Assembly: GCA_003344405.1 (NCBI GenBank) | Contig: NOWV01000126.1 | Coordinates: forward strand, 124,001 to 188,000 | Reading direction: 5' to 3' | Source: Trichoplax sp. H2 | Taxonomy: Eukaryota | Length of the DNA: 64,000 bases | Shown: in pieces, positions 25,343 through 62,815 of the stretch | Position numbering within the stretch: the first letter of the stretch is position 1 | Layout: every line of letters starts with the position of its first letter | Made by a program: the position numbers and the translations under genes | Notes under the pieces: generated by a model | The model's input: only the letters and a program-made list of their open reading frames with translations | Told to the model about the DNA's origin: nothing | Databases searched by the model: none

Positions 25343-26305
25343 ATGATTAATAACAGCATAGCGAATGAAACCGTCCAAGCCAAAGGTACTGGGGTTTCTG
25401 TGATTCCCCTAGGTATTATTGGATCAATTCTAAATTTGATACTAGTCGGAATTATTTTACTTTCGAAAAAATTGAGAAGCCCATCCTATATTTTTGTTCT
25501 TAACCTGGCCGTTTCAGATTTGTTAATGTCAGTCCAAGTAAGTTTTATTTATGTGATAGATAAAGCTTCATTCGAGTTGACAACATTAATCAGCGACGTT
25601 TTATGCAAGTTGCGCTACTTTGTTATCCTTACTTGTTATAGTGCATCAGTATTAAGCTTGGCTGTAATAAGCCTATATAGACTTGAAGTTGTTCTACAGC
25701 CGCTTCGTCAAAGTTCCATTAAATTCATATTCAATCGCCCTAAAATTACTGTTATATTCATCTGGCTTACTTGCATAATCCTTAATATTCCAGTTATTCT
25801 AACAATAAGATACGATGACCAAATCGGCGTTTGTGACTTATATTTCCCATTGGGTCAGCTATACAGTAGTATATGCTTCGGAATTTTATTGACACTCACT
25901 TACTTCATCCCTCTTGTGATAATGGTACTAACTTATCACCGCATTGGTATCAGATTACGGGCAACAAATAGTGCGATATTTGTCAGTAGCAGTCGTAATA
26001 ATCATGGCCTTAATCATCGTACTAAAATCGCTATCAAATTTTTATCTATAGCAACTGCCATTTATATGCTTTTATCTTGGCCACTACTGGTCTCATTTCT
26101 AATACAAGCAATACTGGGACTAACTTATTCAGCTATGTATCATAAGTCAAGCGCTGCTGCAGCATTTCACATCATAGCAAATTCTGTAACTTTTATGGTT
26201 AGTTTAATCAATCCAATTTTATATTTGATCTATGATAAGAATATTAAATTAGAGATTCGAAGATTAAACCGTATAATTATTGCATATTTATTTCGAGACC
26301 AATAA
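25343..26305 (+). CDS. Intronless class A orphan GPCR, paralogue 3, 320 aa
   Basis: GSILN, LAVSD, CK...SLYRL, CDLYFPLG, YFIP, SWP, NPILY, YDKNI. Confidence 0.93.
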   Translation: MINNSIANETVQAKGTGVSVIPLGIIGSILNLILVGIILLSKKLRSPSYIFVLNLAVSDLLMSVQVSFIYVIDKASFELTTLISDVLCKLRYFVILTCYSASVLSLAVISLYRLEVVLQPLRQSSIKFIFNRPKITVIFIWLTCIILNIPVILTIRYDDQIGVCDLYFPLGQLYSSICFGILLTLTYFIPLVIMVLTYHRIGIRLRATNSAIFVSSSRNNHGLNHRTKIAIKFLSIATAIYMLLSWPLLVSFLIQAILGLTYSAMYHKSSAAAAFHIIANSVTFMVSLINPILYLIYDKNIKLEIRRLNRIIIAYLFRDQ

Positions 26306-30442: not shown

Positions 30443-31071
30443 TGTCACAAAATAGCTTTGCAACAAGATAAAGTTATGTACGATCAATAAGTCAATTCCT
30501 TGAACCACGTATCAAGGAACGATATCTGCTTTATCAGAAACACTTTTTCTCTACTAGCAGACTACACAAAGACTTAGACGCCTCTTATTTTACATTAAAC
30601 ACTAAGTTTAAGGATTAACTTTATTACTCGATATATTGCGTTTATATACTCTTCAGTAGTCCATGAGTCATAGTTAGTAAGATAGACTTTGGAATCATTC
30701 ACTGAACTAGATATTTTAGCTACTGCTCCCTAATGCAGACAGCAGTATTTACGAACATAGACATCCGATGACCAATACAAAATTGTCAGATTACGATATG
30801 TCCTATCACGGAACATCTTCACGATAATTTACAATCTACCATAAGTTACAATCACAATGATTCGAACTGTAAGTAGATAATCCGCTTTCCCTAATATAAC
30901 TATTAATTTCAGTATATGTATATACGAAACATATATATCACAGCCGCATAAAGCCAGTGCTTTATTAAAACACAGTATATTCAAATTAGAAGTTAACTAA
31001 ATAAGGATAGGCTAACAAAATTATCCTAAAATAGATATTTCTACTCTAATACAATATATAACACTGTCATA
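30443..31071 (-). mobile_element. Solo LTR, family A (629 bp)
   Basis: TSD GCATA at 30438-30442 and 31072-31076; full-length homology to other copies. Confidence 0.9.
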
Positions 31072-32180: not shown

Positions 32181-32636
32181 TGTGATAAAATCCGATCACG
32201 AAAATTTATATTGGTAGAAAATTAGAAATTTACTAGATCTAATATGAAAATTAGCTACACACAGCTCTACTCTAGCCGAATACAAATACTGAAACACTTC
32301 TAGAAAGAAAACACTATTTTACTGTGGACTATCATTAATCCAATATGGGCCGATTACAGTATTTGCGCAGACATTATTCCTACCATTCCTAGTACAATGA
32401 ACGAAGCATATCCTAATATTTGATTTGCAGTTCTATTTTTACCTCTAATTTTATTTGTAGCTCTACATCTTAATGTATATAGTCATCTGTGCTCTAGCGT
32501 AGAGTCTATCACCACAGTCTATAATTAGAGACTACTAAAAACCGGTATGTCATAAGATAAATATAGAAACGACACTACCGTGCATCATACTAAACACGGC
32601 TAATAGTCTACAATCACAATACTAAGTTACTTTATA
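32181..32636 (-). mobile_element. LTR family C, diverged copy with internal deletion
   Basis: Both termini align to 13525-14075; flanks CGAAG/TAAAG are a possible decayed TSD. Confidence 0.72.
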
Positions 32637-32709
32637 TAAAGTAAAGGTTTTCAGAGAAGAATAATTGTAATTTAATGCAGTGATATTTTTCAGTCCCAAA
32701 ACCAGCTTT

Positions 32710-33560
32710 GCTCAAGTATATTATGATTAACTTCTAGGTATATGTATATAATAGCCATAAATATTAAAATGTGTCGAAAAATTTATTCAAAATTTCTTAT
32801 GTAAGGAGGTCATTATCTGAATATTAAATGATAACTTTCATATCAAGACATTTTTTATAATTACAATATAATTGAGAGGTATTTGAGTGCTTCAAGGCTT
32901 GTTTTAACTGAGGTAATTCGGAAGTGGACTGATGTGACAGTGTTATGTACTGTATTAGAGTAGAAATATCTATGTTAGGATAATTTTGTTAGCCTATCCT
33001 TATTTTGTTAACTTCTAATTTGGATATACTGTGTTTTAATNNNNNNNNNNNNNNNNNNNNTGCTCAAGTATATTATGATTAACTTCTAGGTATACGTATA
33101 TAATAGCTATAAAAATTAAAATGTGTCGAAAAATTTATTCAAAATTTCTTATGTAAGGAGGTCATTATCTGAATATTAAATGATAACTTTCATATCAAGA
33201 CATTTTTTAAAGGTTGTGTCTAAAATTACAAAAGCTAATTTTGCTCAATAGAGTCCTCATCTTAAATCTAGATTATAGCGTAGTTTTTTTAGGTTTCAAA
33301 TACATAGGGATCCTGTGTGTGCTGAACGATGGCTTTCCAAATTTATATCGTGATACACTTACTTTTTCCGTTATCTAATTACAATATAATTGAGAGGTAT
33401 TTGAGTGCTTCAAGGCTTGTTTTAACTGAGGTAATTCGGAAGTAGACTGATGTGACAGTGTTACGTACTGTATTAGAGTAGAAATATCTATGTTAGGATA
33501 ATTTTGTTAGCCTATCCTTATTTTGTTAACTTCTAATTTGGATATACTGTGTTTTAATAC
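32710..33560. other. Gap-flanking near-identical duplication (probable two haplotypes) differing by a ~170-bp indel
   Basis: 32710-33040 recurs at 33061-33560 with extra sequence at ~33210-33377; gap at 33041-33060. Confidence 0.8.
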
Positions 33561-34080
33561 AGTACTGACTTTTTATGACAGTGACACATATACACATACT
33601 GAAATTAATAGTTATAATAGGGAATGCAAATAATCTACTTACAGTTCGAATCATTGTGATTGCAATTTACTTATGGTAGAGCGTAAATTATCATGGAAAT
33701 GTTCCGTGATAGGACATATCGTAATCTGACTATTCTGTATTAGTCATTACATGTCTATGTTCGTAAATACTGTTGTCTGCATTATGGGAGCAGTAGCTAC
33801 AATTAATATCTAATTCAGTAAATGATTCCAATGTTAATTATATTAACTATGACTCATGAACTATTGAAGAATAGTATATAAATGTAGCATATCGTGAAAT
33901 AAAGTAAATTCTCAAACTTAGTGTTTAACGTAAAATACGAGGCGTCTAAGTCTTTGTGTAGTCTGTTAGTAGAGCAAAAGTGTTTGTGATAGTGCAGATA
34001 TCTTTCCTTGATACGTGGTTCAAGGAATTGACTTATTGATCGTATATTGCGTTATCTTGTTGCAAAGTTGTTTTGTGACA
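33451..34080 (+). mobile_element. Solo LTR, family A (630 bp)
   Basis: TGTGACAG...TTTTGTGACA; TSD ACTGA at 33446-33450 and 34081-34085. Confidence 0.9.
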
Positions 34081-36007
34081 ACTGATAAAATATTATAGTA
34101 TTCTTAGAAATTTGCATGAGTTTATAGCTGTAAGCACAATTGCATCTAAAAATACGAACTCTTGAGTTAAAGTAAATTCAGAATAATACTATCTATTATA
34201 GCTATAATAAAGTATTTATTTGAGCAGCATGCGTGTGTTGAAGCATACAAGCAATACCTACAGCAAATCATTTTAACTTATGAGCTTGGATGGTTGCACT
34301 GCTCACGCTCTCCTAGCCATTTACTTAATTTAATTTTGGCATTGAGAACTTATAAATATCAGACTAAATAGTAAATTTTTGTTCCATACATATCCGCATA
34401 TACCTTAGATACAGGTAGTAAATAAAATAAAAAAGATTAAAAGGATGTCAAGGACTTAGAAAAGAATATTAAGGTATTATAGTATGACTCCATAGCCGTG
34501 CAATGTGTTGGGGGCACTTCAATGAAAAGTATACTGTGATTGTTCAAAAAATCTATGAAGTGTTCCATTTCTTACAATTGAATTAATTCAGTGTACGGGT
34601 TCGCAATGGAAATTAATACTAAACGGAGGCTTTTATGTATAACCGTATTCATAACGAATTCACTATAATTGCCCATATTTTACTTAGATTTCATATAAAA
34701 CGAATAGCGTAGGTAAATGAAATAAGTGGATAGAGTGTCGATAGCATGATATATAATTAATATCTGTAAATTATAAAACTTTCTTTCTTGGCCTTGTTCA
34801 TATTGGTAACGTTGAGCAGCCGTACTGGTCCTGGAAAGTAAATTGAATGTAAGAAAATTAAAATACAGTAAACTGGTTACCTTGCATTAAGCTCCAAGTT
34901 ACGACGTATGTTGAATAAAGGAAAAATAATAAATTCCATCGAATACAAGATCTCCAGTATTGATGATGCCCAACGGATATTCACAACATAATAGTTACCA
35001 TGACAAATATTTTTAATAATTAATCAAGGTATAAATAAAGTAAAGAACACCACTCACTTCTAAATTAAATTCTGACCAAAAAAGATTATGACATCAAATT
35101 TGTTGACAGTTGCGTTTTACAATGCGTGAGCAAGTTCTCTTAGTATTTTATAGAAAGCATCAACTCATTGAAAGTGGAAGAACACGGATAAGAGTTTGGG
35201 ATTACTAGCTCTTTTGAATTTCGTCACTGATAAAAAAATAATCCATCATCTGTTTTCAATGTTGTATTTAATCAATACTTTCAGGATAATATTGTATTAA
35301 TCCATTAATTAAAGCAATGAATTTACATTCTATTGGCTACTCTTAATCTTACGGTACCTCTATATCAGCTACAATTCAATATGATGTTTAATAAGTAAAG
35401 TCTAAATAGATTTATTTGAATATCATTATATTATTTGATAAATTTAAGATGGTTTATTTACAGTATGTTGGTTCTTGTTGAATCAAATGAAAAACTATAC
35501 TTCAACTATAAGATTCCTAGTTCGCAATCTTATACAGCTACGAGAAACTAATATAGAAAGAGTGAATACGATATACTAAAATCAATTCAGCAGGGTGATT
35601 ACGAAGTGATTAAAAGAACAAAGAAGGATGCAGCTAACTTACGTATAATCAAGGCGTTATAACAATACATTTTACATCTACATAGTGAACCTATATTTTT
35701 AATATTTATCATTAGACAAAGAAAATTAAAGTATTCTGTGCTAATGCATGCGTATAACACAAATAAATCAAAAGTTGACAGAAAGGAACAGCGTCACGAT
35801 CACATTTATTTACCAGCACATTTAGTATGCTAGTCTTACTTAATATTCTGCTCCATAGAATATTCTCTAAAAATTCTGAAAATAATATAGAATCGAATCT
35901 GAAAATTGGTTATTGTCGCAATCTGTTGCCTAATAGATCGGAAACCATCTTGTTACGAAGTATTATTAACTGGTACATTTATTATAGAAACATTTTATAC
36001 CTGTAAG

Positions 36008-36955
36008 ATGGACGTAAATTCGACTGCCAACGATTCCGTGACAAATAAAAGTGGTAATGCTGTAATTCTTCCATTAGGTGTGATTGGGGTTTTATTAAAC
36101 ATCGTTTTATCCATCGTTATCGTAACAGCTAAGCAACTGAAGGCTCCTGCATATATCTTTCTTACTAATTTAGCCATAGCTGACTGTATAATTTCAATTC
36201 TAGTTAGCGTGATGTATTTCCATGATAATTCGATGGTTCATCTCTCAGTATCAACGAATAATATCATTTGCAAAATTTTACATTATATCCTTACTTCTTG
36301 CTATATAGTGTCTGTCTTCAGCTTAGCACTGATAAGCTTGTATAGACTAAGATTGATTTTAGTATCATTTAGGAATTACTTACCGTCAGGACCGTTTAAG
36401 TGGCCGAAATTAACTAGCTTGTCAATATGGTTGATTGGATTCCTCTTGTGTATTCCCATTTCATCTATTGTTCAATACGCCAAAAAGAGACTTCTTTGCG
36501 ATATATCATACCCTTACGGTCAATTATTCAATGTAATATTCTACATTTCTCTTTTTATGCTCGTCTACACTATTCCAGCAATAATTATGCTATTAGCTTA
36601 TATTCGAATAGGTAAAAGACTACGAATGACTGAAGATGCAGTCATGATTTTTAGATCCAATCAGACCGTTCACGGTCATAGAGCCAATACGGCCGTCAGG
36701 TTTCTCTCTATTGCTACTACTATCTACATGCTTTTTTCTTGGCCCTTCTTAACTTCTTCTATAGCGGTCTCCATTATGAATACAACGTTAAGTCATGTTT
36801 ACGAAATGTCAGCTGTTGGACCAGTCTTACTTACGACTTCGTATACAATGACATTCCTAGTCAGCATCATCAATCCAATTTTGTATATAGTGTATGATAA
36901 AAACATTAGATATCAACTTCAAAGAGTACTGTCTAAATACATTTACTTAAAGTAA
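36008..36955 (+). CDS. Intronless class A orphan GPCR, paralogue 4, 315 aa from ATG 36008 (ORF track starts at an upstream TTG)
   Basis: MDVNST start matches paralogue length; GVLLN, LAIAD, CK...SLYRL, CDISYPYG, YTIP, SWP, NPILY, YDKNI. Confidence 0.93.
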   Translation: MDVNSTANDSVTNKSGNAVILPLGVIGVLLNIVLSIVIVTAKQLKAPAYIFLTNLAIADCIISILVSVMYFHDNSMVHLSVSTNNIICKILHYILTSCYIVSVFSLALISLYRLRLILVSFRNYLPSGPFKWPKLTSLSIWLIGFLLCIPISSIVQYAKKRLLCDISYPYGQLFNVIFYISLFMLVYTIPAIIMLLAYIRIGKRLRMTEDAVMIFRSNQTVHGHRANTAVRFLSIATTIYMLFSWPFLTSSIAVSIMNTTLSHVYEMSAVGPVLLTTSYTMTFLVSIINPILYIVYDKNIRYQLQRVLSKYIYLK

Positions 36956-38189: not shown

Positions 38190-38480
38190 GTATTATTCTC
38201 AGCTATAATCAGCATTGCAACATTCTATCATTTTCTATACGTATTTAGATTATTATATATATATGATTTACAACTGTAGTTCTATTCTTAACTGTAACTT
38301 TAATAGTAAGCCCATACACTACTGTATACTGTTATCTGTGATCTAGTATAGAATCTTCCAGTACAGTGCATAGTTGCGAACTTCTAATTATGTCTTAAGA
38401 TAAATATAGTAAGCTACGCCACCATACATCATAATAAACACGGCTAATTGTCCACAATCCCAATACTAAGTTATGTTACA
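38190..38480 (-). mobile_element. LTR family C, old partial copy
   Basis: Shares aaacacggctaat...caatactaagttatgttaca terminus; left boundary approximate. Confidence 0.65.
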
Positions 38481-41400
38481 AGTAATTAATATACTAGACC
38501 TGTATCACAGCATTTTAATAGAGTAACCAAGTTTTCTAAAGTGTATTTAATAATCCCGAGTGATTTCATAAGTACTTATGGTGCTGTCGGTATCGATATG
38601 CTGGAATCCCCAAAAACTCAATTTAATCCTTTTTCAAGCTATAGATAATCCAAACTAAAGTTTTTATATATTAACAATTTAGAATTATTGGTAAAATTAA
38701 AAGAAATTGAAGTAACATTTCCAATCAAACAATAATAGAATTTAAATAACTTTTTGACTTTAAGTAACTAAGAATGAAAATGTGGAAAGAGTTAATAATT
38801 GATAATTATGAGAAAAACACAAACACAGACATTACATTTCCGTTCTAGTTAATTTAAGTAAAATTTTTCAAATAATGACGAAAATATGTTATATACAATT
38901 CTGAAATCTTTATGAAATCGCATATTTTAAAGTACGTTCTATAAACTATCGTCGTTCTTCAATACAGTATTATAGAATTATTGATAGCTTTTATATATCA
39001 CAGCACAGCAATGATGAAATAACCATAATTTATTGAATTAGCAACTACAGCATTTCATTTTTTAACTGCAGTTCGCCTAAAGGCAATTTCTATGGAATTG
39101 TTTTACAGCTATCAAATTCCAATAAATATTTCATTTCTCAGAATATCAAAATAAAATTGATCATAAGAGTTTTCTATCGATCTAATGTAACGGCAAGCTG
39201 GTTTTCAAGTTTAAAATTTCTAGTATTAGCGATTTAAGAAAGAATACCATATCAAGAGTATCCTGGAATGTTATTTATGACAAACAATAGGTCACTATAT
39301 AGTTTACAGGACTAAAGTACACGACGCAGCCGTTTGCAGATATAGAATTTACAAATAAAACAGTGCTCTTAGCTATTTTTAACTATAAATGAAGGTATAT
39401 TTTCGATTGGTTACTCCAGTATTTTAGAAAATGTGCTTAAATATGCTTAAATATAAGGCATTGTTACTGAGTAACTTTTGTAAAGTTGTCGTAATTTGGT
39501 TCCTATATAACATAACTCACCTGGAGAGGTGTTTATATTAAATTATCTATGGCATTTTACGCATTTAATAAGATAATCGTATGGTTTTGTAATATTATCT
39601 AAGTACTAATAACTAATGATAACGCTTTAAAGTTTGAGTTCAGTTACGTCTGAAGAGAGATTATTTATTAATTAATGATGTTACTTTTCCTTCTGACAAC
39701 AGAAGATTGCCAGTATTCAGAGTCGCTGCAGGTAAATGTCAGGTAGGACAAGCCTTACAGTAAGTTCTTAGTATTGAATTTCTGTATTAGCCCAATTTTG
39801 TCACGTTACAAATTTCTATTTATAGCGATTGTATAATTATTTACCATGGATTTTACCTTTTAAAAGTTGTATTTTTGTTAAGATCTTTTATTCGTATGAT
39901 TATTAATAAAGATGAAGGAAATAGCCATAACGTTTAGAAATGTGAAATCATTTTGTTTTTATTAACTGAGTCGTATGCCTTAATTAAACAAAGCACATTT
40001 ATTAAGTTCCTCATAATGTTATAATTAAAAGCTTTCATTTACTGATTTTGCTAAAGATAAGATTAAAACTTCAAGAAGGTTAAGGTCTTATTCTTAGCAA
40101 AAATTGACGTAAACTATAAACTAGTTCTTTAGGATATAAAGTATTTCCGGTTTACTCGAAGCTGCAAAAAATTTGTTCTTAAGTCATCATTTTGTCTGAA
40201 AGTAATGCACTTTAATTTAAATTCATGAAAATGCTATATAACAGTATATAGAACGCGATTGCTAAACATATTTTCTGTATTGTTTGAATAACAAGCTTCC
40301 TATCACATCTGATACAAGCCGAATTAAATTGTTTAGTTAATTTTTAAACTATGTTTGCAGCTATTCACTATTGATTCACGAGCAAGCAAATGAATATCGT
40401 TAGTCATATCCAATCCAATGATATAGATATCCATTTGTAATGAAGCGTCTTCTCAAAAATATAACAAAAACTACAGTTTCTTGCAAACTTCACTTTATGA
40501 CATAAGATTATGTTCCACTTACTACTAACAAGGACTATCTAATTACAATCAGGCTATCTCTGAACTATATGAATTATCACAGCAATATTCACTGTTGATA
40601 CAAAATTAATTACACAACGATTTTCTTTCAAGCACAATCATATCTTAACAATTAAGCAGCAAGTTCATGTTTGAATTTGCTATCACGCTATCAATTCATA
40701 ATTTGTGCTTCTAATTAAAACATCACAATACAAATCGCACAGCACTAACATAAGTGGAACAATCTATTATTATCTCAAAATTTTAATATAAGCATCTCAA
40801 TACAATTACTACAATACCTGCTATAAACGTCTTACACAATTAGATACTTGTGCAGTCTTGTAACCTAGCTTACAATTCAGCTTATTCTCGTACAATCTTG
40901 AATCGTAATCTAAGCTGTATTTGGGGCTCCACTACATCATTAATAAAATGCTTAAAAGTAATATATTATAATTATAAATGAAATATACGGAGCCTCCATT
41001 TGATCTATGGTAATTCAATGGATAATCAACAATATAAGCAGCAACCAAATTAATTACAGCTTTAAGAAATTTGTAAGCTTAAAGAATATTTCTTTCATTT
41101 AATAATCGCAATATAAAAACGTAAGATCTCGGGCGAAATTCAGTTAAATTACCATTTCTGCTTAGAGATTAGGTCCTAATTAATACTATATACATGCACT
41201 GGTAACTGTTACTAACGATTAGAGAATAGAATAGTAGAATTAAGTGGCTGGATTTAGTTTATCGTTGAGACACTCACAAACAGGAAAAAATTTTGCATTG
41301 ATGAACTAAAATGTTTATTTAAATTATGCTGTACCACAAATGTGATCCTTGCCTAATCTATATTACAAGTATTCCTTCATCGTCTAGCCCTTATGCAACG

Positions 41401-42495
41401 TACTTACCTCTTTAAACCACACTAATACATTGGAATCCTATTCTATTGATGCCCTATTTTCTACTTCAGTTCCGCAAGTATAAATGGAAATACGAAATAT
41501 TGATAATATCGTGATAAAAGCCATCGGCGACAATCAGTCATAAGACAGAGAATACTATTTCTATCTGTATGGCCACAGTAAATACCGCAAGAGACGAAAA
41601 ATACTATTGCATAAGGAAGCATTTTAGACTAGGTATATTATAAATGAATTGATTAATCTAAAAGATGTAGAAAATGCAATTTCGAAGTATGTCACTTTGA
41701 GGTATTTATGTAACTTGTAATAAGACAAAACTCAATCCTTATTACTGAAATTGTTTGAAAGAGTTGTAGATTTCGATTTACCTAGGGTTTGTGGTTGTAT
41801 ATGATTTAATTACGAAATAAAATCCATAATTAATGCATACCGATTGTTAAGGCTATGCCGTACTGCATATTGTATTTATAGTATTCTGCATACCTACATA
41901 ATGAATTATCATTACTATCGTTAATTTCAGTGTAGTATGCGTAGAGCATATATTAGAGTAAGAGAGTTACAGTGAGCTCATACAATTTATGTAACGTATC
42001 GAGTTCGTAATGCACTACCGTTTCAACAACCATAGTGATTAGATATAGATATTCAGGAAAACATCGAATCTAATCACATGCTATGACATTAACACAATAA
42101 GTAACTGGAATTTATCTAGTGACTGCTGCTGTAGAGAGGAAAGGTAAAGTAGACTACTACTAGGACAATTTTAATCATCAAGGATGCTGTTAAGTAACGC
42201 TGCACATTGCATGCTGTACAGTACAGTATACGAGACAGTACGTATTTACTTAGTATAGCACTATAGAAAAAGTAGATTAAGTTAGTGAACATAGTTTGTA
42301 AATATTGTAAATATCAATTTTATTAATAGAGAACTTGTAGCTATATTATTAATATTTTATCTATTCATACAGGTTACAGCTTATATTTCAGCGCATAATA
42401 CGAAATCTTAGCGTAAAAGCAATCTGAAATATTCATTAATTAGTCAGAATAAAATTGCTTCTACTGTAAGAGTACTAGTTTATAATTAATTATAA

Positions 42496-45400
42496 TTATA
42501 AATTACAATTCCATCCGCAAAGCATATCGGCTACAATATTTAAGCGATCCTGACCAAATATTAGAGTACCGTCGTTGACTTGAAAAGCGGGTACACCGAA
42601 CGCTCCAGCTTTTAAGGCGCTAGTTAATAAATTAATTATTAATGATAGATGAGTTAATACGACATAGTCAGATACGCGTAAATACTGATATTGATAAATT
42701 TGAGTTCATAAAGTTGTTATCCTACCGAGACATATTTTGTGCAAACTGATCTTTGATATTATCTTCTTCAGCTTTTGATAGAATGTCTTTAGCGTCATAC
42801 CCAGCTTCTTCTATAACCTCAGCAACTACCTATTTGACACGAATTGAAACTGAATTTTGTTTACAGTTGCATAGATAACTTCTATACGAGATAGCATTTC
42901 TAATTTAATAACCTTATCATCACTTAGATCACGATCTGCTGTCCAAAGCTCTTGAACTAGTTTCCAAGTCGATAATAACAATAAGATTTACAGCGGTATA
43001 CGTATTAAATGGATTGGTAAGATAAAATATGGCAAAACAGGATATATGCTAGTGTATGAGTAATTCATGATTTGCCAGCTTACATATTTTTCTACGTAAA
43101 TCTGCAGCATCGTTAACGAGAATCGCACGAAGCGTAGTGGTAGATATGTATGGAAACTTTGAGTTAAACTTGAATGGCATACCACCGCGGAGCGCTATTT
43201 GCATTTGCATGTCTCTACCGGTGGCTTTTAAAAAAGCTGGATTAGCAGCATCCAGAGCTGCCTCCTTTTTATAAGCATATCAATAACTTTCAGATTTAAT
43301 TTGATATCAAAATTGCAAAGCTATTTTGCAATATTCTTCGGTATCAACTTACAACTGGTGCTTTGTTTGCTTGGATTAAACCTGGTAGCGACACAGGTAC
43401 CCATTCTACATCTACAGTTACAGGCTTTAATTGTTCTACCAAACGTTCGATCTAAGTTTTTAGAACCATTTATATTGCAAATTTATTTATTCGTTTAAAA
43501 ACGAAAAAAATTTAAGCAAAACTAATTTACCGCAACGGCTGCTATATAACTCCATGGACTCACGAAATCGTAATAAAATGTAAGTTTAGCTCTATGACCA
43601 GGAGTCGCTGAACTTGGTAATCTTAGTCTCAATTCTGAGGCTTGATTATTGCCCAGCTCTCTTTCTACAAAATATAATCGATCGGGTCCAAAATATATTT
43701 TGCGGGAGACACGAAAGCTAAGTAAAGTACATTATAATGGCATTAATAACAACAAATATAAATACGTATATGTGCGTTGCAGTGATGAATGCAATAGAAA
43801 GATGAACTTTTATCAAGATATTACCATGGTACACGAAATATACCAAGTTTATTTGCTTCTTCATTAAGTTTTTTCAACGGTTCTTCGCCTCTAGCTATCT
43901 GTTGCTGTACATTTAAGCTCAATCCTGCTTCCTTAGCAATATTCTCCAGTACCTAACATAATAATGGCATCAAAATATCAACGCCTTATCATCTAATGAT
44001 ATTATGATGGTTTGTAACAATGTTAAATTAAGTCTTTAATTTCAAAGCCAGGTACCGATAGCTACAATTCATGTTGAAGGGCATATTTGTTACTAACACT
44101 AAATCTCTTTAGAAGATAGACAGTTCGCATCGTAAATCCTGTAATTCTACCTTACTATCTTGAATATCACAATCTTTTAGCCAATAGTGAGAGAATAAAG
44201 CCAACGATAGCTTTTCTCTGTCCCCGTTATTATCAATAGAAGCTAATAGCTTCTGCGGTGTACCATCTTGATCTTCATATCGAGGAGAGCGATTGATTGG
44301 AACATTATATCGTTCACACATCATTTTTAGATCTTTAAATTTTTAGATAATACGAGGTTTATTAGTAACAGTATGCGGTAATCTTTAGATGGTAAGATTT
44401 CAAGTTGATCTATTATAGCAAAGTTTAGGGAAGGAACAATTAACTGTATATATGAGTATGGATATTATATTGTGTTATTGATTGATAACCTGAACGAACA
44501 ACATCATTGCTAAGTTCGGTAAACCGGAAACACAATTTTAATGATTTGCATTATACAATTAACTAAAATCTATATTTTCATAAATACTACGCAAACGTGA
44601 TGTTAAAGATTGCAGCATGCTTGCGCGTAAGTTATGTTTTAATCATTCTACCTCTTTCCATCCAAACTTTCTTTGCGGAACAATCACCTTTAACTATAGG
44701 TGATCCAACACCGGCGCGATCCTTAATAGAGTCTGGAATCAAAGAAATTTACAATTTGTTTTAGTTCTGTGTCATTACGATTTTATTCGTAAATATTTAG
44801 GCGGATGTTGAATAAGTATATTCATGACCGTACGAGTGCAGTAGTTATTACATTTTCAGTAGGACTACTAAAGTGATTATAATTATTGCCAACTATATTC
44901 AACTTGTTATAAAGCAAAATTGATTCTGTAGCAAGCAGGATAATTTCGAAGTGATACCGTAAAAGTGAGGTTTTACATAGTAGCAAGAATCGATCGTACT
45001 GTAATGGGGGTTACATCGTGCATGAAATTATTTTAAAAGAGTAAAAATGATAGGTATTAAAAATTTAGCTTTCAGCTACAACCTCATCGTAGATATTATA
45101 CTTTACTGTATATTCCTGATTATCAAAGCATAAGAAGCACAGTTTTTCTTCAAAATTTTAGACGTAGTACGTTCTAAGTAATACTAATAATTCTCATTAC
45201 TGCATTTCATTCGGCATACAGTATTGCTGTGACCACCAAAACGATTCTATTTATAATTCGATTTACCGTAACTAAGAGAAGTTATAATATGCCACTACCA
45301 GGGACTACTGAAGAGAGAAGACATACGGTTATGAAGCCATCTTATATGTACTATTTTACGATCATTTATCATTACGTTATCAATCCAAGCTAATAGAGAT

Positions 45401-46112: not shown

Positions 46113-47631
46113 CTTTGCTTTCAGTCCTGCATCTGCATACGGATTCTCAAATTGTAACAATAATACGATGACACAGTCGATGCTTAATTTATTGCAGACG
46201 TAGTCATGTTTACTGTTAAGTGTTTACACTTATTTCCTGTAGTCTAAAGTATAGTATTGTGAATACAGTTAGTACTTTATCTATTGTTACTCGTATAATC
46301 GAACTTTAAAAATAATATCATATGATTATGATTCTTTTTGGACTTTGGACATCTTTGACCTTCTACTAAGATGTCGAGGACATGTGATACAATCACATGA
46401 GTAGTATAACACCATGACTGAACTGTAAACATGGTTCTTCTAGTACTGTATACGCGTCTATCTGTATGCAATATGCACATTTGTCAAAGTACAAATACAC
46501 CATAAATAATGACATACAGTAGATTAAGTATTTATGTCGTAATAGGTTTCTGCCTATATAAGTTCGGTTGACTAAACTTTTTATCATTGAGGTTTAATTT
46601 TACCTGTTGCTCGTTAATAACTGATTTTGTAGTTTTTACGAGTAAAATAGCGTTGATCGTATTAGTTAGAATAAAGTAAAAGTAGCTCAATATTCTGAAG
46701 TTTGCCTGTGTGACTGCAGTGCAGGAGGGTAGTTTTATGCTAAAACTAAAATAGTAGTTGATAGTAGTAAATTAGAAGAGCAGAATACTTTGCTTTATCC
46801 TTGTCAGGAGAGTAGTCCGTGACAACAGTAGACAGTATAACATTTACAATATAGCACAGTCAGGAACTTCTAAGCGGAAACATGCATGCAAAATAAAAAG
46901 TACGAGTACAGTAAGCAAAATACAGTTTAACGAGCGATGCATCGACTAGTCGAAATTAATGCACATTATACAGTACTGATTCTAAACCTATTCTATATCA
47001 GTAGCAGCATCAACACAACAGATATCAATCAAAATCAGTACGGGAACCTTGAAAATGCATATCAGAGCATCTATGCTGCAGACTACCCGCTCGGCAATTT
47101 TAACCTTAAAGATGTTGTAGAACCTTATGTTAAGATCTTTTCGTTTAGTTCCTAGTTCGCCACTGTTTCATTCGTATATTTATCCTACATCTACAATCTA
47201 CAATGTCAAGAAAGATTGTAGACCTTCCTTGTTAAATATATGTCTGATTTTCTTGCAATAAGATTAAAAGAATTCGCTCCAGTATACAGATCATAACTAC
47301 TGGTACAACCATGAACTACTACAGTATATCTACATTGTACAGAGAAATAATGGTGCACTGTACGGGACGGTATAGTCCAGTTCCAGTATTATAGCATGTC
47401 ATAACTTTGCACATTTTTATATTATGGTACCTTAAGTCAACGATTATTGTCTGTAAATATCAATTTTATTAATAGAGAATTTTAATCTTCGGCTATAGTA
47501 TTGTATCTATTGATACTGGCTACAGCTTATATTCGAGTGCATGATATGAAATCTGAGCGTAAAAGCTACCTGAAATATTCATTGATTAGTCAGAATGAAA
47601 TTGCATCTACTGTAAGAATACTAGCTTATAA

Positions 47632-48196
47632 TTACAAATTACAATCCCATCCGCAAAGCATATTGGCTACAATATTTAAGCGATCCTGACCAAATATTAG
47701 AGAACCGTCGTTGACTTGAAAAGCGGTTACACCGAACACTCCAACTTTTATGGCTCTAGTTAATGAATTAATTATTAATGATAGATGTGCGTATACTGTA
47801 CGCAGATAGATGAGTTAATACGACATAGTCAGATAGGCGTAATTACTGATAATAATAAATTTGAGTTCATAAAGTTGCCATCTTACCGAGACATATTTTG
47901 TGTAAACTGATCTTTGATATTATCTTCTTCAGCTTTTGATAGAATGTCTTTAGCGTCATACCCAGCTTCTTCTATAACCTCAGCAACTACCTCTGTGACA
48001 CGAATTGAAACTGAATTTGTTTATAGTTACGCAGATATGATAAAGTGTCTTCTCAAAAATACAAAAGAACTACAGCTTCTTGTAAACTTCACTTTATTAC
48101 ATAAGATTACGTTTCATTGTTGTAACTCTTTCCATCCTGATGAGCAATCGCTTTTAACTAGCGGTGATCCGATACTAGTTCGATTTTTAACAGAGT
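47632..48196 (-). pseudogene. Truncated, rearranged duplicate of paralogue A (exon 2 remnant plus exons 9-10)
   Basis: Exon 10 copy 47755-47632 (GVPAF changed to GVTAF) and exon 9 copy 47990-47887 are near-identical to A, including intron 9 and 3' flank (to ~47450). Exon 2 copy 48196-48126 is 10 nt short (frameshift) with the donor lost; exons 3-8 absent; no exon 1 found. Confidence 0.85.
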
Positions 48197-49323
48197 CTGG
48201 AACGAAAATATCTGCTATCGGCTTTTGTTCTATACAACGGCGATATCACCGTAAATGGTTATACAGTCGGTGATAAGCAAGATAATGCTGAGCTGATATT
48301 GTAACATATGGGCTTTGCAAAATAGCAGTAAAGATTCTAGGCATGGTAATTTCAAGGTTATTCTAGAGATAAATTATAAATCAGGGACTTTTTAAAATCG
48401 TGAAAATCCATCAGAGAAGTTCTAAAATCACAAAGTGCTGCGTAGAATTACAGTAACGTTATTTGATGTAAGTTTATAGGAATTACTGTAATCGCTAACT
48501 GCGAATTCGTTTACTTTCTATACATCTCCCAAAAAGCAACGCTATTATTTATTTCCCGCAAGTTATCTCAAACGGGGTTAGACAGTAAAGTATACTGAGC
48601 GTAAATTGATACTTCATTTTAGAATTAAATCTGCTACGGAAATGCAGCATATCAAATGTTTATGTTTGTATGAGCATCTTGTAGTATACTGTACTGTACA
48701 TACTGTATAGTTCAGTATAGTCAGGTGTCTCAATTGCAAGTCCCTCATTAAGAACAGTAGTTGGACATTACAATTTGTTGTTGATTTTTAACCCCGCAAA
48801 ATGCAGTAGGCGTCACTGGTACTCCGTTATAGCATGTTGATGCTATGTAGGCGTGCATTTAAAGGTAGATGATTTAATTATGATATCCACGATTGCTTAT
48901 CTTCTTGTCGTATTCGTGTAGTGTCATTATCAATAATAGCTATTTATCCATGTGATATACTGTACTGCATAGCAATCGATAATGCATGCAAATGCAAACT
49001 GATGATGTTATTCTACTGTACTGTACTATATACTGTACAATCTGGCATATGCAGCAGGCTCTGTCGGCTAATGAAGAGCATAAGTTGTGTACACTGTAAG
49101 CAGTGAGTCAGCGAAAGTAAGCCCGTCGACGGCCTTGCTTAGTGGAATAATTAGGCCAGAAGAAATGGTCAGTAAACTAGTCCATTTTATGCTAACTTCT
49201 TCAAAGTCATTTGTCTATCGTACAGTATGCGGATCAAGATGTTCATTTGTATAGTGTTCAGTAGTCAGGAACCAACTGAATCACTCCACCAGCATTCTAC
49301 AGTACAATAAGTGTACAGTACTA

Positions 49324-49855
49324 GAGTTCATACTAACAAATGTATTGAAGGTTGGTACTACTCTCAATCAGCATGGAAGACAAGAGATTGTACACGTAGT
49401 TGAAATTAGTGTAAAATTAATCAACTACTAACTCCTATTCTCCCTTTCTTGTACAGTATTGAAAAAGCGACGGCTTCTATACGTACGCCGTTCACACTTA
49501 CAACGCATTATCTTAACAAAATCGAACAAATATAGCGAAGTATATCATAGGGTGGACCGTGCACACTGTACAGGAAGTGGTTGTACTATTTGGAGTTAAT
49601 ACGAACAACTGTGTTGAAGGTTCGTGCTGTACTACTCTCAATCAGCATGGAAAACAAGAGATTGTACACGTACTGTAGTTGAAATTAGTGTAAAATTAAT
49701 CAGCAACTAACTCCAATTCTCCCTTTCTTGTACAGTATTGAAAAAGCGACAGCTTCTATACGTACAGTACGCCGTTCACACTTCCAACGCATTATCCTTA
49801 CAGTATGTAATAGAGTGGACAGAGTACACAGTACTGTACAGTAAGTGATTGCATT
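49324..49855. repeat. Tandem duplication, 2 units of ~270 bp
   Basis: Copies start ~49324 and ~49593; both contain ctactctcaatcagcatgga...gccgttcacactt. Confidence 0.9.
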
Positions 49856-50419
49856 GCCATCAATTGACAATAACGCTCAGTCGCCTACAGACTACAACAA
49901 CACACCTATAGTAAGCACAACTTTGGACATCGGCGCATGACCAGAATTTGGACACCTTTGACCTTTTCAACTCACCAAGAAAACAGAATCGAGCACAGTA
50001 CTGAACTGTACTGTACAATGTGTTTCTTTTCGTTTCCAACTTTTGCATGGCCAATGATTACTATGTGCTTCGACTGTTCTCGCATCGCTATAAAATGGCA
50101 TAAAGTGAAGCAATTTTACCTTAGTTTCAGTAATACTAGTACAAACTCACGTCGCTTTGCTGACGGTTTACGATAATGTTAATAAATTTCTCTACTTCTG
50201 AGTCTGAAAGAAAATAAACACATTAGTACTAGACGTGTTCAGTACAATACTCACTTTTTACAGTACAAATACTGTACAATACACTGTACAGGACAGTACT
50301 GGATACTGTAATGATTGATTATATGGAACAGTATAGTTTATAATTATTTATTCCCCAGTACAGTACAGTAGTGGTGAGACACTTGCTGGTGCACATTGCA
50401 ACAACAATCCTGAGAAAAT

Positions 50420-53400
50420 ATGGCACGTCTGGTAGAATTCTATTATGATATTGCATGTCCATTTTCCTACGTTGCAACGTATTCATTGCGTTCACTTCTT
50501 AGTAGAAGTGATGTAAAGGTAATTTGGAAGCCTGTTCATTTTGGTAAGTTCTCCATTTTTACTGTTTCTTCTTTCTAAATGTACTGCTACACCGTATACA
50601 AAACCAAAACATCAGTCAATCGAATTGTAACCTCCCCATTTTGCGCACAGATCTGCCCATCTCTTTTTCCTCGTCTTATAGTAGTCTCGAGTTACACACT
50701 GTTCAATTGTAAAGTTGTACATCATTTCAATTTCAACAAGTGAATACTATCGGGTATAATGAATGAATTTCACAGCTTTATACCATTGCATTATTCGTAC
50801 TAAGCCTCCTAAAGTGGTCATATTTCAAACTCTGTCTGTCGACAATGTCCTATGCTTATTGCATACTCTCTACTTTTATAGAATAATCGGATCGTATTTC
50901 TACAGCATTTAATATCCAAGGATCTTGTACATGACATGCTAGACTAATAGTAATTGCGTGTGTATGTCGATTCATTTTCAAGTTGCTGTATCAGTGCTAG
51001 CTTGTTGCGAGTCTTTAACATTATAATTTACATTAGCTAAATAATGTACGATATTCCACTTACAGTGACTACCCTGCATTGATCAACGTTATAGTTAGAT
51101 GAATTTTGCTATGCACTTATTCTATTTTATGTGGATGTAGGAAGCATAGACCCCGGCACCGTTATTGGATCACCGATAGTAGATCGTCCTAGCTCGTCGA
51201 AGTCAAATTGGATCTATCAAGGTACTACTACCAAAATCAAATGGATATAGCTGAAACTTCTATAAGAAGCTGATGAAAGCCTACATATGCTCTTTGTGTT
51301 TAAAATATAAATCAGTTTAATGTTCAGATCAACACTGTCAGCTATCTTATCTTATATAAGCTTAAATAGAAAGAGCAAATGTTAGTTAAGTTTTGTGATG
51401 TATTAGCTTAAATGCAATGACTGCAACAGATCATGTTGAGTGAGATTTATTTACAATTGAAGTTACTCTGGGAATTGCAAATAGAACATTTCCCTTTACT
51501 TGTATACTCTTCTTCAAGTATGGCTAAATATTTGAAAGTTGAGAAACTTACCTCAGCATGCACTTATGTACCATATTTAGACGGCCAGACAGATACTAGT
51601 TTCAAATGTCGAAAACAGATTATTAATAGCTTCTGTTTATCTCAATGAATAGATTTACAGATGATGATTAGCAGACTGCAAGTTCCCATTAGGCGACAAG
51701 CGAAACATTTAGATCAAGGAGGAAGTGTACAGAGGCTGCTTGCTTCAATAGATGATAATAGTAACCGTCAAAAACTATCGCTGGCTTTATTTAGACACTA
51801 TTGGCAAAATGGAGGAGATATTCAGAGCATACAGGTTATTACTATTTCAATACAAAACGATTATATTTGTATGTTATATTATATTAGTTATAGGCAACAA
51901 TTCCATCGTACGTAATAAAATTAGACATAATGTGGTTAATTGTATGTTAGATTACGCACACTAAAATAACGTAGCAGCTTTAAGTAAAAGAGATTCATCT
52001 TAAATCAGTTTTAGAATTTACATTAACAATCAAGGGCTATTCGAGCAGTTTTAGAGGATACTATCGATATTAAAAAGCGTAAAAAGTGATTTCTTTCTAA
52101 AGGAAAAAGTAGGATCTGGTTTGACCAACTGCATGCTAAATGGACTTGCCTAAAAATTGAATAACTAATTTTCTATTCCGAGCTCGAACCATATAATACT
52201 TCTTAGCAATACGGTTATATTCTTCAAAATTATTCTAAGATTTTCTATATTTTCGTTACTATTGAAGAATTTGAAAGAAGTAGCCCTCGATGTGGGACTA
52301 TCCATGGATGTTAATAAACAGATTGAAATCGGTGCTGATAATTTAAACAATTTCAATACTGAATCAACCAATAAAGGTGTCTACCGTCTACCAGGGTAAG
52401 CTCGGGATAATGGATTCTCTATCTCAAATACTACCGTTGCTTGCTTTGCAAACCAATAGAATTGCATAAAATCTTAACATCTGTACGCGTACGTACGAAT
52501 ATGTTATTTATAGCTTCTTTGTTGACGGCAAACTTTATCATGGAATGGATCGATTGCATTTTGTAGAGAAGATTCTTGGTAATCCATCGGCTAGAGAGTT
52601 AAGATTAGCACTACCGAATAATGTAGCTGCCGACCATAAGGCTAAACTTACCTTCTACTTTGATTTTGCCAGCCCATGGAGTCACATTGCTAATACTTAT
52701 GTATATGATTAAGAATTAGATGCTTTCAGCTAGCCTATCTGATACAGAGCATACCATAGAATGATGATATAACATTGCACTATCTTTGCCCTTAGATGTC
52801 CTCTTTCTTGAAAGAATTACATCCAGTAAATGTTGAGGTTGAATATGTGCCAGTAATTTTAGGCGCTATTATGCAAGCACTAGGCACTTCAATTGTAAGT
52901 AACATTGGCTATGTTCAAATCGCAACCACAAAATCTAGTTTGTGTCCAATACCAGCAGAATTGAAATGATCATTAAGTAGTGGTGCGTAATACTGTTGCT
53001 AGATTCCGGTACAGAAGATACAGCGATCGAAAGTTCGTGCAAGCAGAGCAGATATGCATGAATACCTTCACCACTTTGGAAATATAACTCTTAAAATGAA
53101 TTCTCATTTTCCTATACAAACGTTGATGTCTCTTCGAGTTGCTATAGCTAATGATAGCGCAGATCTTCGAAGAAGAATATGTATGTGGTTATTACTGTTA
53201 GTGCCGTTATTACAAGAAAAAATTTTTTATGTAACAGCTTTACTATGATAATTTTACTAATAGTTGAAGCAGCTTGGATCAATAATCAGAACATTTCTAA
53301 GACTGAGGTGAATTATCACTATAGGGTTATTCTTTTTAGATTAATTATCGTTTATTTTAGTTTATTTTTTATTGGCTTTGATTCGTAGGTACTAGCCGGA

Positions 53401-53716
53401 ATTATTGAAGAGGCCGGCTTAAATTCGACAACACTTCTTAAGCAGGCACAAGAAGCGAGTGTGAAGTCACAGCTTAAAAATAATGTTATGCGGTATGCTA
53501 GTAAAGGCCTATGTAAAGTGTTGATATCATGATTGGCTGCAGAATAGATTATAAATTTTGATCTAAATTTATAGCGCAATCAAAGCTGGAGTTTTTGGCG
53601 TGCCGAGCTTTCAAGTTAACTCAGGACCTACAATCTTTGGTGCGGACAGAATGAATATCGTTGCTGATATGATTTGCGGTTGGGAATACGTACCAGGAAA
53701 TAATTCTAAACTATAA
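50420..53716 (+). CDS. Tandem two-domain DsbA/GST-kappa/HCCA-isomerase-like protein, paralogue B (10 exons, 422 aa, C-terminal SKL)
   Basis: Exons 50420-50543, 51141-51221, 51653-51834, 52268-52395, 52514-52700, 52796-52894, 53003-53180, 53264-53307, 53389-53492, 53575-53716; GT-AG; 1269 nt in frame; same intron phases as A. Motifs YYDIACPFSY, GVYRLPGF, HGMDRL, YFDFASPWSH, GVFGVPSF, FGADRM; ends GNNSKL*. Confidence 0.9.
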
Positions 53717-60572: not shown

Positions 60573-60851
60573 ACATCCCTAGCTAAAAGTCCAAGGATAG
60601 TAAGAGTAATCCTACCAGCAGAGCTTCAATATTAACTGATTAATTAATTAATTATCAAGGCATACATTATAGCACAACACAGTAGATAGTACAGTATGAG
60701 GGCTGGAACGCACAGGAAAGAAGTTTATTGTCACATAGTTGAGATGAGTAATAAACAGATATTTGCAATAGGAGAAGTGCACGTTAGAGAAACATGTGTT
60801 AAGTAATATTGAGAATAGAGAGAAACCAAAATACTCACCGTACAATAGACA

Positions 60852-61155
60852 CAACCATCTGAATTAATGTTTTTTATACGCTTTTAGTAGACTCGAAACT
60901 GTCCAACTGGTGCAGTATGTACTGTACTTAAGAGCACGTCTTGGAAAAAAAAAAATTGTAAATACCGCCATTTTCTGTATTGACTATAAAAATGATAATA
61001 TTAACTCTTTTTAGACGACGAAAAATAAAATAAGTTTGCGCAACCCAAAAATCATCGTATTGACAAATATTTTTAATCGACATGTTCTTAAGGGCATAAT
61101 ACACCAGTAGGACAGTTTCAACTAAGTGTCCAAAAAATATTAATTCAGATGGTTG
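60852..61155. mobile_element. MITE-like element with ~90-bp imperfect terminal inverted repeats
   Basis: caaccatctgaattaat...gaaactgtcc.actggtg...cttaaga.ca.gtc at ~60852-60940 is mirrored at ~61078-61155; non-coding core. Confidence 0.7.
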
Positions 61156-62815
61156 GGTGCAGCGTTGTTCATAATTAAATGTTTAATGTACTATAGAACA
61201 ACAAGAAGATTGAAAGGGCATACATTACATACTAATTAAACTGTTACGATGAACTTATAAAATTCTTTGGTAATTTCTTGTAACTAGTAGAATCGTACTT
61301 GTACCTATTAGTAATTTATGACGACCTCAACGTTCGAAAAAATCATAGTTACATCAAATCAATCTATCCATTTTTAGGAACGTACGAGTACAGTATATGG
61401 TCTATCCTTTTATCGAGAATTAGTCTGCAAATAATCGTTACGGATAAAACTTTTATCACATGCTACAAACCTTTTATGTAGCTCGAATATCTACCTAATC
61501 ATCATTCATTGAAGGATAAAAATTCAATTCAACGACGGTTATTACACCATTATTGATATCATGTCTTGATATCAGTAAATATGCGATAGTTGAAAACAGT
61601 ATGAATTTATTATTACAGGCTTTATTCAAATGTTGCATTTTCAATAAATAAAATATGGCTACATTTGGTATCATTTCGCTACACAGCTTCTTCACTCTTG
61701 AGGTTAAAAGTAGGCTTTTTGTGTCAAGGGTCTTGAAAATCTGTTTCCTAATATATTTACAAATAAAGATGAGATATGGTTGAGATATTTAATTACAAAC
61801 GTACTGTCGTTCAAAGAATTGAAGCAGTTATACTTCCGATACAAGCTTGTAAGTTTTTCTATTAGTTGTACAGCCATTTTACTAGACAGTAATGCGATAG
61901 TTGTGATATTGTAAAATAGACCTACTTCCCGACCATCCATCCTAGTAGACAGTAAACTCGGATAAGTACGTGATAGACGTTACAGAAATGGAGGCTGCAA
62001 TTTTATTATGATGAGCTAGACCCCTTATTGTATCAAGTATTAAGTGCTATTTTCCATAGTAAGTAAAAAAATAAAAAAATAATAATAAAATCTCGTCTCT
62101 TTTATACTTTTTATCAAAAGAAATAGAAGACCGCATTTCATTTAATTCTGTCTATCGGAAGGAGACAAAAACTTCAGACTTGACTTAAGCATGGTTACTT
62201 TGAGCTAGCAATGCCATAATTTAATACCTGGAAATTATGAATAATCAAAGTTCTCGTTTTAAACAATTAGTGGGTTAATACAATATGACAATAGACGTAC
62301 AGACTCAATTAAGTTCTAATTAATTTTTGAATGGTTGAAGAACCTTCGTAAACAATCATTGTTAGATTTTTTTTATCGTTAATTAATGATGAATAGATCA
62401 GGGTGCTGCACTCAGTCTTTGACGAGCCTACACCGTATCACGTTAACTGATCAAGGTTAAAACATTACTCATCTCAATGATTAGTTATTGATGTACAACA
62501 AGTTTTCCGCTTATAAAAATAATTACGCGACAAAACCGTTAGTTATTTTAAATTTTATGAAAATCTTGCATATATAAACTCTTGGAATAAAATTATGATG
62601 TTAATTTACGAGCATTTGGGGTTAGAGTAAGGGTTAGGAATAGTGTAAGGTCATATCTAAGTCTATTAAAATACCAAGGGATGACCAAGGCTGTTCTTAA
62701 ATATTGAAATTAAGCTTAAATTCTATGGTCCTTCCATCAATTAGATTTACATGAAATAAAAAGATAATTTTCATATTCAGAGCTTTTATATTTAAAATAT
62801 TTTAGTTTGCATACG

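What the first reader, a model, noticed from the sequence alone, without database searches (positions are those of the whole stretch)
48680..50375. Dense field of TACAGTA/TACTGTA Tc1/mariner-type excision footprints upstream of paralogue B
Seen: about 23 exact TAC(A/T)GTA heptamers by manual count in ~1.7 kb, often chained (TACTGTACTGTA), against a rough compositional expectation below 1. The ~270-bp tandem duplication gives an internal control: TA at 49397 in copy 1 is TACTGTA at 49671 in copy 2; TA at 49484 is TACAGTA at 49763; TA at 49356 is TGCTGTA at 49625. Established: Sleeping Beauty-type Tc1 excision leaves TA-C(A/T)G-TA. Inference: repeated insertion and excision at an accessible promoter region has rewritten it in 5-bp increments, although no transposase is visible in the window.
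Basis: partly seen in the sequence, partly recalled or inferred. Interest (0 to 1): 0.8.

Follow-up and report, generated by a model that had tools for sequence, protein, structure and literature searches.

The report
Trichoplax ACAGT repeats as transposon scars
This patch in front of a gene is a dense cluster of the already published five-base ACAGT repeat of the tiny sea animal Trichoplax, and its units appear as exact five-base insertions at bare TA sites that look like scars left by a cut-and-paste jumping gene, although no such jumping gene was found.

Summary
Observation confirmed: 23 TACAGTA/TACTGTA at 48680-50375 (shuffles 1.15), ending 45 bases before the ATG of paralogue B. The motif is genome-wide (2.2 per kb) and is the published ACAGT microsatellite of Trichoplax (PMC2871265), whose origin is unexplained there. 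Across 42 copies, 5 bp is the commonest insertion size, 16 single insertions read TA to TA-CAG/CTG-TA (13 exact), none is an exact copy of a neighbouring unit, and one site gained CAG in one copy and CTG in another. A minor class, TA-CA(G/C)TG-TA, is polarised as joined CAG/CTG overhangs would give. Slippage alone fails. Best reading: Tc1-type footprints plus secondary slippage (about 0.6); rival: element-free break repair or template switching (about 0.25). This scan noted the same idea before on other DNA of this genome (8 notes seen).

The parts
48680..50375 (.). Field of 23 TA-C(A/T)G-TA heptamers (12 CTG, 11 CAG), 27 one-mismatch copies and two TA-CACTG-TA nonamers, in the intergenic stretch between divergent DSBA-domain paralogues A and B
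49322..49549 (+). Copy 1 of the short form of a dispersed element (full form about 480 bp, TG..TA ends, 5-bp target duplication; LTR- or Ginger-like, not decided). Bare TA at 49356, 49397, 49484; derived TACAGTA at 49452. The 3' end near 49549 is read by eye
49584..49802 (+). Copy 2 of the same element, local duplicate of copy 1 (shares the derived TACAGTA, here at 49731), with three further derived 5-bp insertions
49625..49631 (.). Derived insertion, TGCTGTA (one mismatch from TACTGTA); empty in copy 1 and in most family copies
49671..49677 (.). Derived insertion TA to TACTGTA; the same site reads TACAGTA in copy L025, so two independent events of opposite orientation
49763..49769 (.). Derived insertion TA to TACAGTA; the same site is also filled in copy L024
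50135..50179 (-). 3'-end fragment (short hairpin, CTAG followed by T) of a very high-copy Helitron-like repeat inside the field; Helitron end rule recalled
50420..53689 (+). Paralogue B, spliced DSBA-like thioredoxin-domain gene; first exon starts MARLVEFYYDIACPF at 50420; no heptamer in the gene body

Best explanation
The heptamers are the genome-wide Trichoplax ACAGT repeat, and each unit is born by insertion of CAG+TA or CTG+TA at a TA. Shown: the insertions, their polarity (gain, not loss), both orientations, no adjacent template, higher rate in motif-rich surroundings. Inferred: a TA-targeting DDE transposon with CAG...CTG ends (Tc1/Sleeping Beauty type) inserted, duplicated the TA, excised with 3-nt 3' overhangs, and end-joining left C(A/T)G, or less often CA(G/C)TG. 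Repeated hits near gene starts built mixed chains, and slippage later lengthened some (same-orientation neighbours 75 of 118, implying roughly a quarter of junctions from duplication). The element would be rare, gone, or missing from the assembly.
For: Sequence identity with the canonical Sleeping Beauty footprints (10.1101/659086, passages). Family A, 42 copies, 13,287 bp: distinct insertions of 3/4/5/6/7 bp = 5/11/18/1/3, against 2 distinct 5-bp deletions. After pairwise realignment to the nearest empty copy (hand-curated): 13 exact and 3 one-mismatch single events, 2 multi-unit events, 1 TA-CAGTG-TA event; 5 other 5-bp insertions do not fit. 6 of 11 5-bp indels in 70 local duplicate pairs are exact, 4 of the 6 outside the window, one of them in an N-gap allelic pair. 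The motif makes up only 1.8% of TA-N(0-8)-TA donors (11% in motif-rich kb), so random templating would not give this purity. TACA(C/G)TGTA is first of 32 TAC-NNN-GTA nonamers at 43 (next 14; mirror TACT(C/G)AGTA 9; the other dinucleotide-slippage product TACACAGTA 9). Tc1 DD34E and related relics exist in the genome. Gain rate 15 units in 3.0 kb of copies with motif-rich flanks against 10 in 10.3 kb, p = 6e-5.
Against: No TA|CAG...CTG|TA inverted-repeat element in 951 kb held (one hit, internal to a longer inverted repeat; also 49, 51). The Tc1 gene at L029 has a stop and no inverted repeats; the pogo-like and L030 frames have altered catalytic motifs by eye and no inverted repeats. A Tc1-end pattern gave 2 hits, neither with a partner arm. 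Other Sleeping Beauty footprints are not enriched: TACATA 0.77, TACTA 0.91, TACGTA 0.82 of expectation. No filled/empty pair (element in one copy, scar in another) was seen. Allelic pairs 97-99% identical differ by many units plus an apparent micro-inversion and an inverted duplication (L103, L136), a rate hard to reach by ordinary hopping. Family D (32 copies, motif-poor flanks) has 5 distinct 5-bp insertions, none exact; families B and C (top hits only, biased to indel-free copies) have 1 and 0.
Confidence: 0.6

Rival explanations
1. No mobile element is involved. Breaks or stalled forks at TA near the quasi-palindromic arrays are repaired by short template switches or templated insertion from nearby arrays (or cut by a resident nuclease that lacks inverted repeats), so the motif propagates itself.
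For: No element found. Gain rate rises about fivefold with flanking motif density. 11 of 14 target sites have G before or C after TA against 0.436 in the element, p = 0.009, giving 3-nt microhomology. Short inverted duplications of unique sequence sit between motif units in L136 and L159; 3 of 4 such hairpins lie in motif-dense places against 5.4% background (small n). TACASTGTA is also the more palindromic product.
Against: Even among GTA-N(0-8)-GTA donors the motif is 16% (38% in rich kb), yet inserts are almost always exactly CAG or CTG with no donor flank. Exact events occur in copies with 0 motifs per kb in their flanks (L022, L027). Genome-wide solitary sites show only a mild G/C context bias, 0.386 against 0.329 (the filter for solitary sites was rough).
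Confidence: 0.25
2. An ordinary slippage microsatellite kept near promoters by selection as a protein-binding or insulator site, as Wang et al. suggested.
For: Published: 54% within 1 kb upstream of genes (PMC2871265, text parts 1-2); ACAGT repeats came out of a motif search tied to chromatin patterns in T. adhaerens (PMC12817080, passages). Same-orientation neighbours exceed chance, 75 of 118, p = 0.004. One (CAGTA)3 gain in L025.
Against: 0 of 16 single insertions are exact tandem copies (3 are one letter away; by eye); 43 of 118 junctions flip; 676 of 756 runs are single units; units arise inside repeat copies in motif-poor regions. Selection may still act on units once born.
Confidence: 0.1
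3. A telomerase-like or other terminal addition of a fixed five-base unit at breaks.
For: Multi-unit gains at one site between close copies (L025, L004, L148, L136).
Against: Both kinds of orientation switch are equally common, CAG-to-CTG 23 and CTG-to-CAG 20, strict TA anchoring, and mostly single units.
Confidence: 0.05

Closest known systems
(ACAGT)n microsatellite of Trichoplax adhaerens (Wang, Zhang, Meyer, Bao 2010, Biol Direct 5:18, PMC2871265)
   Same: Same unit (CAGTA is a rotation), same animal group, same position upstream of genes, genome-wide abundance.
   Different: The two parts read (of four) treat it as a microsatellite and possible binding site and give no origin. Here most units are solitary or of mixed orientation and arise as TA-anchored insertions.
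Canonical excision footprint of Sleeping Beauty (TA + CAG or CTG + TA; 10.1101/659086, PMC4378557, passages read)
   Same: Identical 7-bp products, both forms about equally often, net +5 bp at TA.
   Different: Here natural and genome-wide (about 170,000 excess sites by extrapolation), stacked in chains, without the shorter footprints that made up over half of events in that cell-culture assay, with a TA-CA(G/C)TG-TA class not in its list of eight, and with no element found.
Mutator elements at placozoan loop-anchor promoters (Kim et al. 2025, PMC12221973, passages read)
   Same: A transposon-derived motif concentrated at placozoan promoters, with domestication or targeted insertion as the two readings.
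   Different: A different motif (ACGG-type according to PMC12817080) lying inside terminal repeats of resident elements; Mutators do not duplicate TA (recalled).

Membership tests
Trichoplax ACAGT microsatellite (Wang 2010) | Unit ACAGT, perfect runs over 12 bp | tested here: met
   CAGTACAGTACAGTA at 50357-50371 and 13-14-base ACTGT runs at 48687 and 49014; most units in the field are shorter.
Trichoplax ACAGT microsatellite (Wang 2010) | Genome is Trichoplax | tested here: met
   Three Mariner/Tc1 rows of the paper's supplement 2 translate, by eye, to the starts of L213, L214 and a stretch of L215, with one residue different in the first 25 of L213; genome size 94.9 Mb.
Trichoplax ACAGT microsatellite (Wang 2010) | Lies upstream of a gene | tested here: met
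   25 motifs in the 2 kb before the ATG of gene B, 0 in its 3.2-kb body; only 7 and 3 before paralogues A and C and 1-4 before four GPCR genes.
Slippage microsatellite | New units copy an adjacent unit; arrays are uniform | tested here: not met
   0 of 16 single insertions are exact tandem copies (by eye); 43 of 118 junctions flip.
Tc1/Sleeping Beauty excision footprint | Net +5 bp, TA to TA-CAG-TA or TA-CTG-TA, at a formerly bare TA | tested here: met
   13 exact and 3 one-mismatch events polarised against 42 copies; 6 of 11 5-bp indels in local duplicates.
Tc1/Sleeping Beauty excision footprint | Both forms from the same kind of site | tested here: met
   Site 49397/49671 is CTG in window copy 2 and CAG in L025; 12 against 11 in the field.
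Tc1/Sleeping Beauty excision footprint | A TA-flanked element with CAG...CTG inverted ends exists in the genome | tested here: inconclusive
   None in 951 kb, about 1% of the genome, mostly 3-kb loci; a family of 100 intact short copies would be missed about 37% of the time, one of 300 about 5% (arithmetic).
Tc1/Sleeping Beauty excision footprint | An intact catalytic ITm transposase | tested here: not met
   DDE_3 2 matches, HTH_Tnp_Tc3_2 4, DDE_1 3, DUF4817 0 with no control ringing. L029 keeps D,D34E but has a stop; its best relative is 53% identical among 912 candidates. Counts are lower bounds.
Tc1/Sleeping Beauty excision footprint | Shorter non-canonical footprints accompany the canonical ones | tested here: not met
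   TACATA/TATGTA 0.77, TACTA/TAGTA 0.91, TACGTA 0.82 of order-2 expectation.
Tc1/Sleeping Beauty excision footprint | Filled allele and scarred allele at one site; excision seen directly | not testable with these tools
   None among 70 duplicate pairs; only contigs of four runs could be laid, on 20 kb.

The most novel reading that the evidence does not exclude
The commonest promoter-linked repeat of placozoans is written, still today, by a Tc1-type cutting activity that has almost no resident elements: each scar makes new G|TA and TA|C sites that are hit again, so promoters become self-feeding break-and-scar hot spots that also invert, duplicate and delete nearby DNA, and the scars have been taken over as a chromatin-insulation or promoter signal.
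Probability: 0.2. Interest if true: 0.85.

Novelty: new variant of a known kind. Interest (0 to 1): 0.58.

Why it matters
The 2010 paper left the abundance of ACAGT as an open puzzle, and a 2026 Hi-C model recovered the same repeat among motifs tied to chromatin patterns in Trichoplax. If the units are excision scars, a genome described as nearly free of active transposons carries on the order of 170,000 records of past transposition, concentrated at gene starts, and a regulatory-looking motif was made by mutation rather than by selection for binding. The claim is directly testable with existing phased genomes and reads: indel spectrum, filled/empty alleles, minor end-joining classes. I found no paper proposing this origin (searches; open-licence library only).

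Tried and rejected
Tandem Repeats Finder shows no array in the field. Hunting the element: inverted-repeat scans of window and loci found MITE-like elements with TGTTGTAG-like or GGG-like ends, a long inverted repeat in L086 and an old one in L156, none CAG-ended; a recalled Tc1-end pattern gave 2 unpaired hits; the DUF4817 search is uninformative because no control rang. Laying contigs of four runs at 82% likeness was swamped by repeats: 12 of 77 indel rows were shown, none of 5 bp; from piece lengths, 6 of 32 listed pieces differ from the window by 5 gap letters with net plus or minus 5, including all 3 inside the field, but the letters were not shown, so this is only a hint. Families B and C were sampled by best hits and say little. 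The Helitron-like family did not align beyond one copy with my query. An all-against-all insertion script timed out. The blunt-joined product TACAGCTGTA is not in excess over TACTGCAGTA (6 against 10 double-strand counts). CAG/CTG swaps at the same site between duplicates: 5 of 72, all inside misalignable arrays, so not used. The genome sample could not be widened beyond about 1%. Supplements of the bioRxiv paper are closed, and of the 2010 paper's six files only file 2 was searched; file 1 (methods) or 5 could bear on MITE ends and gene association.

Full report
Observation. The window holds 23 exact TAC(A/T)GTA at 48680-50375 against 1.15 (maximum 6) in 1000 dinucleotide shuffles, and 88 in all against 16. 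The field has 12 CTG and 11 CAG forms, four two-unit chains, two TACACTGTA and 27 one-mismatch copies.

Setting. The window is G000:C160:124001-188000 of a 94.9-Mb genome. It carries single-exon GPCR genes and spliced DSBA-domain paralogues. Gene B starts at 50420 on plus and gene A at 46112 on minus, so the field lies between divergent genes: 25 motifs in the 2 kb before B, none in its body, 7 and 3 before A and C, 1-4 before the GPCRs. Three transposase-like rows in supplement 2 of PMC2871265 match loci L213-L215 by eye, which places the genome in Trichoplax. That paper (parts 1 and 2 of 4 read) reports ACAGT as 78% of pentanucleotide repeats, 54% of them within 1 kb upstream of genes, finds no active transposon and offers no origin. 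PMC12817080 (passages) recovered repeating ACAGT in a motif search for chromatin patterns; PMC12221973 (passages) ties a different, Mutator-borne motif to promoter loops. In 36 blind-picked 10-kb stretches the heptamer occurs 786 times against 150 expected (order-2 Markov), 2.2 per kb, and 2 of 180 field-sized tiles reach 23. The field is therefore a dense instance of a known genome-wide motif.

The duplicated unit is a dispersed element (40 scored matches of 53 candidates) of about 480 bp with TG..TA ends and 5-bp target duplications (by eye); the window has two short copies that share a derived TACAGTA (49452, 49731), so a local duplication of about 200 alignable bases stands. With 42 copies (13,287 bp; 39 loci plus the window) insertions were polarised by column occupancy: distinct insertions of 1-7 bp number 13, 9, 5, 11, 18, 1, 3, while 5-bp deletions number 2. 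The script scored 9 distinct exact TA-to-TACWGTA events and one with one mismatch. Pairwise realignment to the nearest empty copy, curated by hand, gives 13 exact and 3 one-mismatch single events, a (CAGTA)3 gain, a 20-bp gain of four mixed units, and one TA-to-TACAGTGTA gain (L005/L006, one event). Five other 5-bp insertions do not fit (one CT repeat, two at a ragged junction in L024, two that are two letters off). Some events at the same site may be shared by descent. None of the 16 is an exact tandem copy of a neighbour; three are one letter away. The TA at 49397 gained CTG in window copy 2 and CAG in L025. All three differences between the window copies are gains in copy 2.

Other data sets. 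In 70 local duplicate pairs (18.8 kb), 6 of 11 5-bp indels are exact, 4 of them outside the window, including an allelic pair across an assembly gap. Family D (32 copies, motif-poor flanks) has 5 distinct 5-bp insertions, none exact. Families B and C, sampled by best hits, have 1 and 0. Within family A the gain is 15 units in 3.0 kb of copies with at least 10 motifs per kb in their flanks against 10 in 10.3 kb (p = 6e-5; Spearman 0.41, p = 0.006), at equal divergence (0.806, 0.805). The process is thus clustered but also works in motif-poor DNA.

Fine structure. Adjacent units keep orientation 75 times and flip 43 times (CAG-to-CTG 23, CTG-to-CAG 20); 676 of 756 runs are single. That fits random orientation per event with about a quarter of junctions from slippage (inference). 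TACA(C/G)TGTA is the commonest of 32 TAC-NNN-GTA nonamers (43; next 14), against 9 for its mirror TACT(C/G)AGTA and 9 for the other dinucleotide-slippage product. Joining a CAG and a CTG overhang with one base of overlap predicts exactly this class (inference from the staggered-cut model in 10.1101/659086, passages), though a short template switch in a quasi-palindrome predicts it too. The shorter Sleeping Beauty footprints are not enriched, nor is the blunt product.

The missing element. Profile searches found 2 DDE_3, 4 Tc3-HTH and 3 DDE_1 matches. L029 is a true Tc1 DD34E gene with an apparent intron and a stop codon, no inverted repeats within its 10-kb surroundings, and no close relative among 912 candidates (best 53%). 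The others have altered catalytic motifs by eye and no inverted repeats. No TA|CAG...CTG|TA element appeared in 951 kb. That is about 1% of the genome, so only large families are excluded. A few hopping copies could in principle sustain the scars (inference), but allelic pairs such as L136 (99% identical, gains of 14, 92 and 16 bases, one with an inverted duplication) and L103 (an array that reads as inverted) show rates and rearrangements that ordinary hopping explains poorly and that support an element-free rival.

Verdict. Its birth as a TA-anchored 5-bp insertion is shown; that it is an excision footprint is inferred (about 0.6) and works like one, but membership is not established because no element or intact transposase was found. 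I found no paper with this origin. Eight earlier notes of this scan on other DNA of this genome state the same idea and also lack the element; they are not independent support.

Noticed in passing
window 3321-3951, 16333-16961, 30443-31069, 33448-34080: Four copies of a 630-bp repeat with TG..CA ends and 5-bp target duplications (solo-LTR- or Ginger-like); 689 first-look candidates in the genome.
   Followed up: partly
window 50135-50179 (minus): 3' end of a very high-copy Helitron-like repeat, 439 first-look candidates; suggests far more mobile DNA than the 0.13% of the 2010 paper.
   Followed up: partly
window 60849-61158; L121, L122, L124: Low-copy MITE-like element with about 70-bp inverted arms, ends not CAG.
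   Followed up: partly
L086 4-1812 (family C; window 4403-4674, 13512-13836, 32310-32645, 38259-38493): Family C forms 553-bp, 98% identical inverted arms in L086, so it may be the long terminal repeat of a larger element.
   Followed up: no
L136 3545-3620 and L159 1486-1547: Short inverted duplications of unique sequence with motif units at the centre and both edges; in L136 the neighbouring allelic copy lacks it.
   Followed up: partly
family A copies: All 14 copies with motif-rich flanks align over 261 bp or less, while 18 of 28 with motif-poor flanks exceed 300 bp: either a short subfamily that favours promoters or deletions in hot spots.
   Followed up: no
L029 1375-2541 (minus), G000:C323: Single Tc1 DD34E transposase gene with an apparent intron and one in-frame stop, without inverted repeats; best relative 53%.
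   Followed up: partly
L034 / L156 6300-7100 (minus): Tc1-type HTH frame that ends early and is followed by a His/Cys-rich frame, with a MITE holding ACTGT arrays upstream; possibly a domesticated fusion.
   Followed up: no
blind sample, 360 kb: TACGCGTA is 6.3-fold over expectation and mostly away from motif-rich places (19 of 22); TACGAGTA 2.3-fold. A binding motif or a second scar type; unexplained.
   Followed up: no
window 47452-48037 and 42306-42877: 85% identical direct copy of the 3' end of paralogue A, a truncated fourth paralogue fragment upstream of the field.
   Followed up: no
window 4383, 11322, 11816, 15791, 29357, 33041: Six 20-N gaps, each flanked by 97-99% identical direct repeats, probably uncollapsed alleles.
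   Followed up: partly
window 5697-6719, 18136-19104, 25298-26305, 35903-36955: Cluster of four single-exon rhodopsin-like GPCR frames (only the first scanned against Pfam).
   Followed up: no
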